DNA of 64,000 bases from a virus. Its lineage: Duplodnaviria > Heunggongvirae > Uroviricota > Caudoviricetes. The stretch is from positions 1 through 64,000 of IMG/VR virus record IMGVR_UViG_3300014204_000003, one strand, 5' to 3'. The position numbers and the translations under genes are program-made. This document shows, piece by piece, positions 17,062 to 17,717 of the stretch (position 1 is the stretch's first letter; each line of letters opens with the position of its first letter). Under the pieces are notes generated by a model, which was not told where the DNA came from, ran no database searches, and worked only from the letters and a program-made list of their open reading frames with translations.

Positions 17062-17670
17062 TTATTTGATTACCCGCCTTGCAAGGTAATCTACGAATCT
17101 ATTGGGATCCAATCCTCTCTGGGCGCACCAGGTAAATGGGTCCTCGGAACCTTTATCCTTATTGCATGGCTTGCATGCAGTAAGGTAGTTCGTTGTGTCG
17201 TTCTTGCCATCAAGTTCCAAGGGCATAAAATGATCGATAGTCATAAGCGATTTGCCCATCTGGGCACCGCAATACATGCACTTGAAACCATCCGCCGCCC
17301 ATACTTTCTGCTGTATGGTTCCGGATATCTCGTATCTCACCTTGCGCTGGAAAATCTTTGGATTTCCCATAAGGATTTCCGGATCATCGGAACGGCGAAT
17401 AAAATCAGACCATTCTTCGACATCAAGGGAATGGACTTTAGCCCTAACCACTTCATGATAATCAACTCCGGGTAGAGTGAGAATCGCTGGATCGGCGCCG
17501 GCTCCAGTAAGGAGAAGCCCACCTATCTTTACCAGAGAACCGATATCGCCATACATAACCGGGCGATTTCGCATTTCCATCAAATAGAACCGATCACTGC
17601 TTCCCTTGGCCATCTCATCCTCATTAATACTGGCGTTAAGTCCGTATGCTTTATTTCGCGCTCTAACCAA
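17062..17670 (-). CDS. HNH endonuclease
   Basis: CMYCGAQ...IDHFMPLELDGKNDTTNYLTACKPCNKDK HNH motif. The ORF-track N-terminus overlaps a tRNA-like 5' half, so the true start is probably an internal Met around MAKGSS or MEMRNRP. Confidence 0.65.
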   Translation of the reverse strand: MVRARNKAYGLNASINEDEMAKGSSDRFYLMEMRNRPVMYGDIGSLVKIGGLLLTGAGADPAILTLPGVDYHEVVRAKVHSLDVEEWSDFIRRSDDPEILMGNPKIFQRKVRYEISGTIQQKVWAADGFKCMYCGAQMGKSLMTIDHFMPLELDGKNDTTNYLTACKPCNKDKGSEDPFTWCAQRGLDPNRFVDYLARRVIK

Positions 17671-17717
17671 CTGAGCTACCCGGACGCATAAGCGCCCGGG
17701 GTTGGATTCGAACCAAC
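17658..17717 (-). ncRNA. permuted tRNA-like element A/B (third copy)
   Basis: Canonical T-arm GTTGG/TTCGAAT/CCAAC with acceptor 3' strand CCCGGGC, an 8-nt linker GCTTATGC, then acceptor 5' strand GTCCGGG (7/7 pairing, one G-U), TA, and a textbook D-arm GCTC/AGTTGGTTA/GAGC. No clean anticodon arm follows. The HNH ORF starts here. Confidence 0.35.

What the first reader, a model, noticed from the sequence alone, without database searches (positions are those of the whole stretch)
17062..17717. HNH endonuclease ORF begins inside a tRNA-like 5' half (possible homing-endonuclease insertion into a tRNA or Y-RNA-like gene)
The first codons of the 17062-17670 HNH ORF are translated from the acceptor and D-arm sequence GCGTCCGGGTAGCTCAGTTGGTTAGAGCGC. 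No matching anticodon arm or 3' half follows downstream, and about 400 nt at 16660-17062 are ORF-free and hairpin-rich. This fits an endonuclease gene, possibly with a self-splicing intron, that has invaded a tRNA-like gene. A second HNH gene (11240-11902) abuts tRNA-Tyr and a third (4165-4752) is inserted between terL and the portal gene. This is a recurring mobile-element pattern.
Basis: partly seen in the sequence, partly recalled or inferred. Interest (0 to 1): 0.5.

Follow-up and report, generated by a model that had tools for sequence, protein, structure and literature searches.

The report
Phage Y-RNA array beside divergent Ro60
The "broken tRNA" is an intact tRNA-mimicking Y RNA, one of seven in a row that sit with an HNH nuclease gene upstream of a highly divergent Ro60 gene in an uncultivated phage, so no tRNA gene has been invaded.

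Summary
The tRNA-like sequence is real (17687-17658, minus strand), but it is not a 5' half that lost its partner. Its T arm and acceptor 3' strand lie directly upstream (17717-17692). This T arm, closed acceptor stem, D arm order is the permuted layout of YrlA-type bacterial Y RNAs, and Rfam YrlA matches 17762-17627 end to end (40.5 bits, E 5.8e-7, below the gathering score of 69).

This is one of seven tandem units (17906-16051). All share a covarying basal stem with a conserved internal loop (5' YACUG / 3' CGACUU) and UACAUG.

They lie upstream of, and on the same strand as, ORF 16027-14510. Pfam and PDB sequence searches miss it, but its predicted fold matches Ro60 structures only.

The HNH gene starts at ATG 17613, after the Y RNA ends at 17631. 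The TTG 17670 overlap comes from extending the ORF too far. No intron model matches.

Orthologues of this HNH sit just downstream of a Y unit in 23 of 33 distinct related loci with Ro60 identity of at least 50%. Whether it is a working partner or a resident selfish gene is open.

Verdict: a new variant of the known phage Ro60/Y RNA module. The insertion reading is not supported.

The parts
17776..17906 (-). Unit U1. Shared basal stem (P1 GUUUCCUGA/UCAGGAAAC, loop UACUG/CGACUU, P2 UUCGGCU/AGCCGAG, UACAUG) enclosing a complete cloverleaf at 17880-17808 that scores as tRNA-Phe(GAA).
   Evidence: ARAGORN. Rfam tRNA 67.1 bits. Model R1 45.2 bits. Fold z -4.46. In relatives the same unit has other anticodons and usually no acceptor stem.
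17631..17761 (-). Unit U2, a YrlA-type Y RNA. Parts: P1 UGGCGUU/AACGCCA; T arm 17717-17701; 9-bp acceptor-like hairpin 17700-17679 closed by UUAU; D arm 17676-17660. It contains the finding's 'tRNA 5' half' (17687-17658).
   Evidence: Rfam YrlA RF02553 matches 17762-17627, model positions 1-114, 40.5 bits, E 5.8e-7. R1 36.6 bits. Fold. Orthologues in L009, L007, L006 and L034 score 49, 42.7, 37.4 and 35 bits on YrlA.
17062..17613 (-). HNH-domain protein gene, 183 aa. Real start is ATG 17613, GAGGA at 17622-17618, stop codon 17064-17062.
   Evidence: Pfam HNH/HNH_5. 291 homologues, typically 176-192 aa. Conserved N terminus, invariant CxxC...DH...N...CxxC-N. Foldseek matches only generic HNH domains.
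16873..17061 (-). 189-nt spacer 'X' between the HNH stop and U3. Unexplained.
   Evidence: No Rfam or R1 hit. Only the first ~67 nt are conserved, and only in L007. Absent in L006.
16751..16872 (-). Unit U3. Basal stem plus a T-like hairpin, a 7-bp acceptor-like stem with G3:U70, A73 and an encoded CCA (CCCCUCC-A-CCA ... GGGGGGG), and a small D-like hairpin.
   Evidence: R1 34.9 bits. Weak Rfam tmRNA_permuted match, 18.7 bits. Fold. The acceptor motif is conserved in at least 12 distinct loci.
16516..16665 (-). Unit U4. Basal stem (UGACCUGU/ACAGGUCA), two small hairpins, T arm GGAGGUUCGAUUCCUCC, 7-bp acceptor-like stem UUCCCCC/GGGGGAA with a 12-nt loop, and a D-like hairpin.
   Evidence: Motif and pairing scan. 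Fold z -3.32. Missed by R1 default filters, probably because of the long insert.
16412..16507 (-). Unit U5. Basal stem (UGGCGGU/ACCGCCA; 3' loop AACUU) with a short apical domain holding one hairpin and a T-loop-like CGGUUCGACCCCG.
   Evidence: R1 28.7 bits. Fold.
16262..16402 (-). Unit U6. Basal stem (UGGCUGCA/UGCGGCCA), T arm, 7-bp acceptor-like stem AUCCCCC/GGGGGAU, D arm, and an anticodon-like arm ACUGA-AUUCAGA-UCAGU.
   Evidence: Fold z -4.45.
16051..16138 (-). Unit U7. Basal stem (UGCGGA/UCCGCA) with two small hairpins and no tRNA-like part. It lies in the leader, 24 nt before the Ro60-like start codon.
   Evidence: R1 31.5 bits. Fold z -4.65. The same position is occupied in L006, L007, L008 and L009.
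14510..16027 (-). Divergent Ro60 (TROVE-like helical ring plus vWA domain with DKSGS MIDAS motif) gene, 505 aa.
   Evidence: Pfam finds vWA only, no TROVE. No PDB sequence hit to Ro60. AF2 model has pLDDT 82. The 12 best Foldseek PDB matches are all Ro60/TROVE structures, about 500 aligned columns, E 2e-10 to 1e-6.

Best explanation
The tRNA-like sequence belongs to an intact Y RNA gene of the YrlA type. It is one of seven tandem Y-RNA-like genes that lie, together with an HNH nuclease gene, upstream of a very divergent Ro60 gene on the same strand. The genome is an uncultivated phage with a contig of about 107 kb.

Each RNA has two parts.
- A basal module formed by its 5' and 3' ends: variable helix P1, a conserved internal loop (5' YAC(UG) / 3' (CG)ACUU), variable helix P2, then UACAUG.
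- A variable apical domain that mimics parts of tRNA.

Two topologies of mimicry occur. In U2, U3, U4 and U6 the order is T arm, closed acceptor stem, D arm, as in YrlA. In U1 it is D arm, anticodon arm, T arm, with the basal stem at the acceptor end.

Inferred mechanism:
- The array is transcribed with HNH and Ro60 and cut into individual RNAs.
- The Ro60 ring binds the conserved basal module.
- The tRNA-like domains engage tRNA-recognising host or phage factors. By analogy with Rsr-Y RNA-PNPase, the particle then acts on structured RNA or tRNA during infection.

The HNH gene is a separate, complete gene starting at ATG 17613. It does not interrupt the RNA. I rate it about 0.5 that it works with the module, and about 0.35 that it is a selfish endonuclease living in the array.

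Shown: RNA anatomy, covariation, Ro60 fold, gene boundaries, conservation of the arrangement.
Inferred: Ro60 binding to the basal module, co-transcription and processing, any role in infection.
For: 1. RNA identity.
- Rfam YrlA matches 17762-17627(-) over the whole model, 40.5 bits, E 5.8e-7. Orthologous units in four relatives score 35-49 bits.
- The single-sequence fold gives P1, T arm, a 9-bp closed acceptor hairpin and a D arm.

2. Array.
- The 5' motif ACUG-N-UACAUG occurs 7 times on the minus strand. All 7 lie within 16113-17896, and none lies elsewhere on that strand in 64 kb.
- Each is matched downstream by CGACUU followed by the complement of its 5' flank.
- On 41 units from 8 phages the proposed pairs are 84.7% standard pairs, against 56.7% in shuffles. 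Covariation score is 0.633, against 0.18 in shuffles and at most 0.18 when partners are slid. The G:C pair closing the loop switches to A:U and C:G.
- Model R1 finds 5 of the 7 units and nothing else in the window at E<=10.
- In 565 kb of 56 related viral loci, all 59 R1 hits are on the Ro60-gene strand and almost all are upstream of that gene.
- All units fold better than shuffles, z -2.3 to -4.65.

3. Ro60.
- AF2 model pLDDT 82. The top 12 PDB fold matches are exclusively Ro60/TROVE: phage phiLo 9kop/9l5y, Xenopus 1yvp/1yvr, D. radiodurans 2nvo.
- The DxSxS MIDAS residues are invariant.

4. HNH boundaries.
- The orthologue alignment fixes the start at 17613.
- Gene calls in relatives start after the unit.
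- No intron model hit.

5. Arrangement.
- Full-length HNH orthologues (49-76% identity) lie in the same module, each 15-60 nt downstream of a Y unit.
- Searching outward from HNH homologues recovers the Ro60-like gene next door, at 59% and 55% identity.

6. Precedent.
- Y RNAs within 4 kb of, and on the same strand as, Ro60 in 254 bacteria and 22 phages. M. smegmatis YrlA and YrlB are processed from one precursor upstream of rsr (PMC4201824).
- Phage phiLo Ro60 binds two upstream Y-like RNAs and host PNPase (PMC12135203).
Against: - The YrlA match is below Rfam's gathering score (40.5 vs 69). It rests mostly on the tRNA-like part.
- The GNCGAAN0-1G motif that marks the Ro60-binding strand of known YrlA RNAs is absent from the 5' strands of all seven units. 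Ro60 binding to this basal module is therefore an inference from position and conservation.
- The Ro60 assignment rests on a predicted structure (TM 0.5-0.6, rmsd 6-9 A). No sequence method detects it.
- P1 pairing was a selection criterion in my unit finder, so its 100% pairing is biased. P2, which was not selected for, is paired in only 66% of cells in the fixed MAFFT register.
- No expression data exist. No promoter or terminator signal exceeds shuffles.
- The HNH link is patchy. Ten distinct loci with Ro60 identity >=50% lack it. Identity to the window correlates with Ro60 identity by Pearson (r 0.74) but not by rank (Spearman 0.32, p 0.14).
Confidence: 0.8

Rival explanations
1. The RNA reading is the same, but the HNH gene is a free-standing selfish homing endonuclease. 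It resides in, and perhaps cuts within, the conserved Y RNA / tRNA region, much as segB sits in the T4 tRNA cluster (from my own knowledge). It has no role in the Ro60 particle.
For: - Distribution is patchy. The gene is absent from L008 (67% Ro60 identity) and from 9 other distinct loci with >=50% identity.
- Its position in the array differs between clades: after U2 in the window clade, directly before Ro60 elsewhere.
- L034 has 68% HNH identity but only 52% Ro60 identity, and shares the U2-HNH pair with the window clade. This hints at lateral exchange.
- There is no rank correlation of identities.
- The window carries another, unrelated HNH_3 gene between structural genes.
Against: - The gene is found only inside this module, always on the module's strand and always just downstream of a Y unit, in 23 distinct loci.
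- Searching from HNH homologues leads back to Ro60.
- A ~100-residue N-terminal region with many invariant residues is conserved across the family.
- In many loci the gene is separated from the Ro60 start by about 10-40 nt, like an operon partner.
Confidence: 0.35
2. A tRNA-like gene was split by an invading HNH gene, perhaps carried in a group I or II intron, and the 3' half lies further downstream or is lost.
For: - The longest ORF (TTG 17670) overlaps the D-arm-like sequence.
- Nothing tRNA-like follows in the next 550 nt.
Against: - The acceptor 3' strand and T arm are upstream and pair with the 5' strand. The unit is closed by its own P1 helix at 17637-17631.
- No intron family hit at E<=10.
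- Orthologues show the HNH start at 17613.
- Relatives have the same intact unit.
Confidence: 0.03
3. The units are ordinary or degenerate phage tRNA genes and tRNA junctions. On this view the shared motifs are promoter or RNase processing signals of a tRNA operon, unrelated to the neighbouring protein. Chen et al. warn that the T arm of one tRNA followed by the D arm of the next can mimic YrlA.
For: - The region adjoins the phage tRNA cluster, and all relatives carry large tRNA arrays nearby.
- U1 scores as a full tRNA.
- The 5' motif also precedes the Ro60 gene, as a promoter might.
- My T-then-D regex hits many true tRNA junctions.
Against: - In U2 there is no D or anticodon arm before the T arm, and no anticodon or T arm after the D arm. 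The two acceptor strands pair with each other across a 4-nt loop.
- The motif is flanked by covarying helices that include it, so it is transcribed and structured.
- U7 and similar units have the basal module but no tRNA-like part.
- The motif is absent from the ten ordinary tRNAs at 10298-13301.
- The module tracks the Ro60-like gene across 56 loci.
Confidence: 0.07
4. The units are circularly permuted tRNA genes, as in Cyanidioschyzon merolae. Their transcripts would be circularised and re-cut to give functional tRNAs.
For: - The gene order T arm, acceptor 3' strand, spacer, acceptor 5' strand, D arm is the permuted order.
- U6 even has an anticodon arm.
- U3 encodes ACCA.
Against: - U2, U3, U4 and U5 have no anticodon arm.
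- The ends form a long helix with a conserved internal loop rather than a bulge-helix-bulge motif.
- No RNA ligase or splicing endonuclease was seen next to the array.
- The layout is exactly that of YrlA.
Confidence: 0.03

Closest known systems
YrlA-type bacterial Y RNAs (Rfam RF02553; S. Typhimurium, M. smegmatis, mycobacteriophages; PMC4201824)
   Same: - Encoded just upstream of, and on the same strand as, a Ro60 gene.
- The 5' and 3' ends pair into a basal stem.
- The apical domain mimics tRNA in the order T arm, closed acceptor stem, D arm.
- Several Y RNAs per locus, probably from one precursor.
- 7-bp acceptor-like stems (U3, U4, U6), like the RNase P-cleaved M. smegmatis YrlA.
   Different: - Scores below the Rfam gathering threshold.
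- The GNCGAAN0-1G strand motif is missing. It is replaced by a different conserved loop (YACUG / CGACUU) plus UACAUG.
- Seven units per locus, whereas two Ro60-bound Y RNAs each are described for S. Typhimurium and M. smegmatis in that paper.
- The partner Ro60 is not recognisable by sequence.
- An HNH gene is embedded in the array.
D. radiodurans Yrn1 (PMC4201824)
   Same: The tRNA-like domain has the opposite orientation to YrlA. The stem-loop between the D-like and T-like arms occupies the anticodon-arm position, as in U1 and its orthologues.
   Different: U1-type units have canonical D, anticodon (7-nt loop) and T arms that score on the tRNA model. Their anticodon differs from phage to phage. 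The window copy has regained or retained a full acceptor stem.
Thermus phage phiLo Ro60 with Yrl1/Yrl2 (PMC12135203; PDB 9KOP, 9L5Y)
   Same: - A phage-encoded Ro60 with Y-like RNAs directly upstream.
- It is the best structural match of the window protein.
- It suggests a way such a module can act, by binding host PNPase.
   Different: - 17% sequence identity.
- Two RNAs, identified by a CGAA bulge motif, with no tRNA-like domain reported in the text I read.
- No HNH partner described.
tRNA genes interrupted by introns that carry homing endonucleases, and free-standing homing endonucleases in phage tRNA clusters such as T4 segB (from my own knowledge)
   Same: An HNH nuclease gene lies among small structured RNA genes of a phage.
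   Different: No RNA gene is interrupted, and there is no ribozyme core. The HNH family is tied to one module rather than scattered.
Two-piece (circularly permuted) tmRNA
   Same: U3 has the permuted order, with a G3:U70, A73, CCA acceptor like the tmRNA tRNA-like domain. It gives a weak Rfam tmRNA_permuted match.
   Different: No tag reading frame and no pseudoknots. ARAGORN finds no tmRNA. The score is far below threshold (18.7 vs 47).

Membership tests
YrlA (Rfam RF02553) | Reaches the family's curated covariance-model score | tested here: not met
   40.5 bits against a gathering score of 69. The match is full length with E 5.8e-7 in a 2.2-kb search. Orthologues score 35-49 bits.
YrlA (Rfam RF02553) | tRNA-like domain in the order T arm, acceptor-like stem-loop, D arm, enclosed by a stem of the 5' and 3' ends | tested here: met
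   CM alignment and MFE fold of 17761-17631. The same layout appears in U4 and U6.
YrlA (Rfam RF02553) | Within 4 kb of a Ro60 orthologue and on the same strand (criterion of PMC4201824) | tested here: met
   U2 lies 1.6 kb upstream of ORF 16027-14510, same strand.
YrlA (Rfam RF02553) | GNCGAAN0-1G motif on the 5' strand of the Ro60-binding stem | tested here: not met
   None of the seven 5' strands contains it. The conserved elements are YACUG (5') and CGACUU (3').
YrlA (Rfam RF02553) | Bound by Ro60, and modified by TruB and DusA | not testable with these tools
   Needs immunoprecipitation, EMSA and modification mapping.
Ro60 / TROVE proteins | Pfam TROVE domain (PF05731) or sequence similarity to solved Ro60 proteins | tested here: not met
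   Pfam finds vWA families only, all below their cut-offs. phmmer and profile searches of the PDB find no Ro60. PHROG 'RNA-binding protein' scores only E 1e-4, over the vWA part.
Ro60 / TROVE proteins | Ring of helical repeats followed by a vWA domain with a MIDAS motif | tested here: met
   AF2 model pLDDT 82, with helices to residue ~305 and then an alpha/beta domain. The top 12 Foldseek PDB hits are all Ro60/TROVE over ~500 columns. D317, S319 and S321 are invariant. This rests on a predicted structure, not a solved one.
tRNA gene interrupted by an intron-borne homing endonuclease | tRNA 5' and 3' exon halves flanking the insert | tested here: not met
   No 3' half lies downstream of the HNH gene. 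The complementary acceptor strand is upstream.
tRNA gene interrupted by an intron-borne homing endonuclease | Group I or group II ribozyme core around the ORF | tested here: not met
   No intron family among Rfam matches at E<=10 in 15900-18100, both strands.
Free-standing homing endonuclease | Sporadic presence among close relatives, at varying genomic sites | tested here: inconclusive
   Present in 23 distinct loci and absent in 10 with Ro60 identity >=50%. It is always inside this module and always after a Y unit. Pearson r 0.74, Spearman 0.32.
Circularly permuted tRNA gene | All four arms present, with ends forming a bulge-helix-bulge processing motif | tested here: not met
   An anticodon arm is present only in U6. 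The ends form P1, an internal loop and P2, not a bulge-helix-bulge.
Two-piece tmRNA | tRNA-like domain plus tag reading frame and pseudoknots | tested here: not met
   ARAGORN finds none. Rfam tmRNA_permuted scores 18.7 bits against 47, covering only the acceptor and T part of U3.

The most novel reading that the evidence does not exclude
The module may be a new kind of phage ribonucleoprotein system, made of three parts.
- A sequence-invisible Ro60.
- A battery of up to seven tRNA-mimicking Y RNAs. These include acceptor-less cloverleaves whose anticodon differs in nearly every phage, and a unit with alanine/tmRNA-type acceptor identity.
- A dedicated HNH nuclease, acting as the effector tethered by the RNAs in the way PNPase is in the Rsr-Y RNA-PNPase complex.

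With the adjacent GGQ (ArfB-like) protein and the tRNA array, it would serve to survey, repair or decoy tRNAs against host anticodon nucleases, or to attack host RNA or DNA.
Probability: 0.2. Interest if true: 0.85.

Novelty: new variant of a known kind. Interest (0 to 1): 0.6.

Why it matters
- Ro60/Y RNA particles are known from animals, bacteria and a few phages, but surveys start from the TROVE sequence signature. This family has at least 844 proteins in metagenomes, and only one distant relative (27.5% identity) among GenBank phage records. It lacks that signature and was recognised here only through its RNAs and predicted fold, so phage Ro60 systems are probably much commoner than recorded.
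- The array offers a natural series of Y RNAs that share one putative protein-binding module but display different tRNA-like faces. That makes the question 'what does the tRNA mimicry recruit?' experimentally approachable.
- A recurrent HNH partner would, if functional, be a new effector for a Ro60 particle.
- For annotation, such units produce false 'broken tRNA', 'tRNA-Phe' or 'suppressor tRNA' calls, and over-extended ORFs.

Tried and rejected
- Group I/II intron around the HNH ORF: no Rfam match even at E<=10.
- Bulge-helix-bulge or permuted-tRNA maturation: considered from the gene order, rejected because the ends form a long helix with a conserved loop and most units lack an anticodon arm.
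- Two-piece tmRNA for U3: only a weak partial match, and no tag ORF.
- The shared motif as a mere promoter: rejected as the sole explanation, because it is embedded between two covarying helices. A dual role is not excluded.
- Sequence-level identification of Ro60 failed with Pfam, phmmer and a 33-sequence profile against the PDB. Only the fold search worked.
- My strict-register pairing scanner missed most units, because P2 often ends one or two bases before CGACUU. I replaced it with covariance model R1.
- R1 with default filters misses the two longest units, U4 and U6.
- A regex for 'T arm then D arm' was confounded by ordinary adjacent tRNAs and was dropped.
- My first HNH translation was one base out of frame. 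It was redone.
- The HNH N-terminal ~100 residues gave no confident model (pLDDT below 50 for residues 1-27) and no fold match.
- The claim that HNH and Ro60 identities fall 'in step' holds only for the closest relatives.
- One review (PMC10870794) could not be read.
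Full report
**What is at the coordinates**

On the minus strand the sequence GCGTCCGGGTAGCTCAGTTGGTTAGAGCGC lies at 17687-17658. The longest ORF on that strand runs from TTG 17670, inside the D-loop-like part, to a stop at 17062. It carries an HNH domain (Pfam PF01844, E 2.1e-9).

The sequence just upstream changes the picture. Positions 17717-17701 form a canonical T arm (GUUGG-UUCGAAU-CCAAC). Positions 17700-17692 (CCCGGGCGC) pair with 17687-17679 (GCGUCCGGG) across a UUAU loop. 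So the acceptor stem is complete and closed, with the T arm before it and the D arm after it.

This permuted order is the hallmark of YrlA-type bacterial Y RNAs (PMC4201824). Rfam's YrlA model aligns to 17762-17627 over all 114 model positions at 40.5 bits, E 5.8e-7. That is below the gathering score of 69. The same scan, at E<=10 on both strands of 15900-18100, returns no group I or II intron.

**An array, not a single gene**

Reading the minus strand from 17906 to 16051 shows seven units (U1-U7) with a common frame. The frame is a variable 5' strand, then [U/C]ACUG, a short variable stretch, UACAUG, an apical domain, an A-rich stretch, a variable stretch, CGACUU, and the complement of the first strand.

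The motif ACUG-N(3-11)-UACAUG occurs seven times on this strand. All seven lie within 16113-17896, and none lies elsewhere on that strand in the 64 kb (the U5 copy has an 11-nt spacer). For each motif, the bases before it pair over 6-9 bp with the bases right after a downstream CGACUU.

I aligned the basal parts of 41 such units from the window and seven related phages (A2) and counted pairs for P1, a closing G:C pair and P2.
- 84.7% of cells form standard pairs, against 56.7% in shuffles.
- The covariation score is 0.633, against 0.18 in shuffles.
- All slid controls are at or below 0.18.
- Most positions show four or five pair types.

There is a caveat. My unit finder required P1 to pair, so P1's 100% is biased. 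P2 and the closing pair were not selected for. P2 is paired in 66% of cells in MAFFT's fixed register, and the closing G:C changes to A:U and C:G in two units.

A covariance model of this basal module (R1) finds five of the seven units and nothing else in the window at E<=10. U4 and U6, the longest, are lost to the filters. Each unit folds on its own into P1, internal loop, P2 and a branched top, with z-scores from -2.3 to -4.65.

**The neighbouring protein**

ORF 16027-14510 (505 aa) follows U7 by 24 nt.
- Pfam sees only sub-threshold vWA matches.
- phmmer and a 33-sequence profile find no Ro60 in the PDB.
- An AlphaFold model (pLDDT 82) has as its twelve best PDB fold matches only Ro60/TROVE structures: Thermus phage phiLo, Xenopus and D. 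radiodurans. These align over about 500 columns, E 2e-10 to 1e-6, TM 0.5-0.6.
- The MIDAS residues of the vWA domain are invariant in the family.

I therefore take it as a very divergent Ro60. The family has at least 844 members in metagenomes, with no TROVE annotation among the 120 members listed. It has one distant relative (27.5% identity) among GenBank phage records.

**Relatives**

In 565 kb from 56 IMG/VR loci that encode this protein, R1 gives 59 hits at E<=0.01. All are on the gene's strand and nearly all are upstream of the gene. Many are in loci not used to build the model. Units orthologous to U2 in L009, L007, L006 and L034 again match Rfam YrlA at 35-49 bits. The module is thus a conserved feature of this phage group.

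**The HNH gene**

Homologues (291 proteins, mostly 176-192 aa) all begin M-x-S-x-DRFY. In the window this corresponds to ATG 17613, preceded by GAGGA. The gene therefore starts 17 nt after U2 ends at 17631, and the overlap with the tRNA-like sequence is an artefact of extending the ORF to TTG 17670.

The zinc-binding cysteines and the DH...N...N catalytic motif are invariant. The fold search shows only generic HNH domains, and the N-terminal ~100 residues are conserved but not confidently modelled.

Full-length orthologues (49-76% identity) occur in 23 distinct related loci. They are always on the module's strand and always 15-60 nt downstream of a Y unit. That unit is a U2-type in the window's clade and L034, and a U3-type elsewhere, where the gene often sits directly before Ro60. 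Starting instead from two HNH homologues, the next large gene is the Ro60-like protein at 59% and 55% identity.

Against a strict partnership:
- Ten distinct loci with Ro60 identity >=50% lack the gene, including L008 at 67%.
- HNH identity tracks Ro60 identity only through the closest relatives (Pearson 0.74, Spearman 0.32).
- L034 combines high HNH identity with low Ro60 identity.

So the gene is clearly tied to this module. Whether it is a working component or a resident selfish endonuclease is not settled. I lean to the former, about 0.5 against 0.35.

**How it probably works**

Bacterial Rsr binds the stem formed by Y RNA ends, and the rest of the RNA tethers PNPase. M. smegmatis YrlA and YrlB are cut from one precursor upstream of rsr, and YrlA with a 7-bp acceptor stem is cleaved by RNase P and receives CCA (PMC4201824). 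Phage phiLo Ro60 binds two upstream Y-like RNAs and host PNPase (PMC12135203).

By analogy, I infer the following.
- The array, HNH and Ro60 are co-transcribed. No promoter or terminator signal exceeds shuffles.
- The units are excised, and the conserved basal module is the Ro60 site.
- The varied tRNA-like tops engage tRNA-recognising factors.

These steps are inferred, not shown. The known GNCGAAN0-1G binding-strand motif is absent. If Ro60 binds here, it does so through a different, co-diverged motif.

**Comparison and novelty**

The finding works like, and is best filed beside, YrlA/Ro60 modules. It fails two family tests: the Rfam threshold and the GNCGAA motif. The protein also fails the TROVE sequence test.

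New relative to what I could read:
- the distinct conserved loop;
- up to seven units per locus;
- two topologies of tRNA mimicry in one array;
- the recurrent HNH gene.

I rate it a new variant of a known kind. The invasion, intron and mobile-element reading was not.

Noticed in passing
window 17808-17880 (-), and A4 / L006 2816-2878, L007 2843-2917, L008 3866-3938, L009 2521-2595, L014 4014-4085, L022 4177-4252, L025 4473-4546: The 'tRNA-Phe(GAA)' called by ARAGORN and Rfam sits inside a Y-type basal stem. Its counterparts in relatives keep the D, anticodon and T arms but usually lack an acceptor stem. They carry a different anticodon in almost every phage: UUA, UGA, UUC, CUG, AAU, UAU, UCA, CAU. 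It may not be a decoding tRNA.
   Followed up: partly
window 16751-16872 (-), and 12+ related loci such as L014 4301, L030 4317, L034 4785: The acceptor-like stem of U3 has G3:U70, A73 and often an encoded CCA, the identity set of tRNA-Ala and tmRNA. This is conserved across the family. Whether it is cleaved by RNase P and charged is unknown.
   Followed up: partly
window 13499-13855 (-): A small GGQ-motif protein (Pfam RF-1 domain, E 4.3e-15), ArfB-like, lies two genes downstream of the Ro60-like gene and just before the tRNA array. The same arrangement is seen in L001, L003 and L004.
   Followed up: partly
window 16262-16402 (-): Unit U6 carries, after its D arm, an anticodon-like arm with a 5-bp stem and a 7-nt loop AUUCAGA. 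The UCA at the anticodon position would read UGA.
   Followed up: no
window 16873-17061 (-): A 189-nt stretch between the HNH stop and U3 has no ORF, no Rfam or R1 match, and a strong predicted fold (-61.7 kcal/mol). Only its first ~67 nt are conserved, and only in L007. It is absent in L006.
   Followed up: partly
window 16150-16223 (-): A hairpin with a 14-bp stem (CCCCUGCGCUGUCU...AGCGCAGGGG region) lies between U6 and U7. It is conserved at 79-83% in L006 and L007 and may be another small RNA or a processing site.
   Followed up: partly
window 4165-4752 (+) and 11240-11902 (-): 4165-4752 is an HNH_3-family gene on the opposite strand, next to the portal gene (2237-4117, SU10/P22 portal), with ORF 4135-4611 overlapping it on the minus strand. 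11240-11902 has no HNH or other Pfam hit at E<=0.001. Neither resembles the HNH of the finding.
   Followed up: partly
window 14510-16027 (-) and proteins P0001-P0120: The Ro60-like family is large in metagenomes, but none of the 120 members listed carries a Pfam TROVE annotation. TROVE-based censuses of Ro60 in phages would miss it.
   Followed up: partly
L007 9328-9411 (+): A sub-threshold Rfam tRNA-Sec match (37.8 bits against 47) in the tRNA region of a relative. ARAGORN also calls 'tRNA-SeC(UCA)' inside Y-type units in L017 and L019.
   Followed up: no
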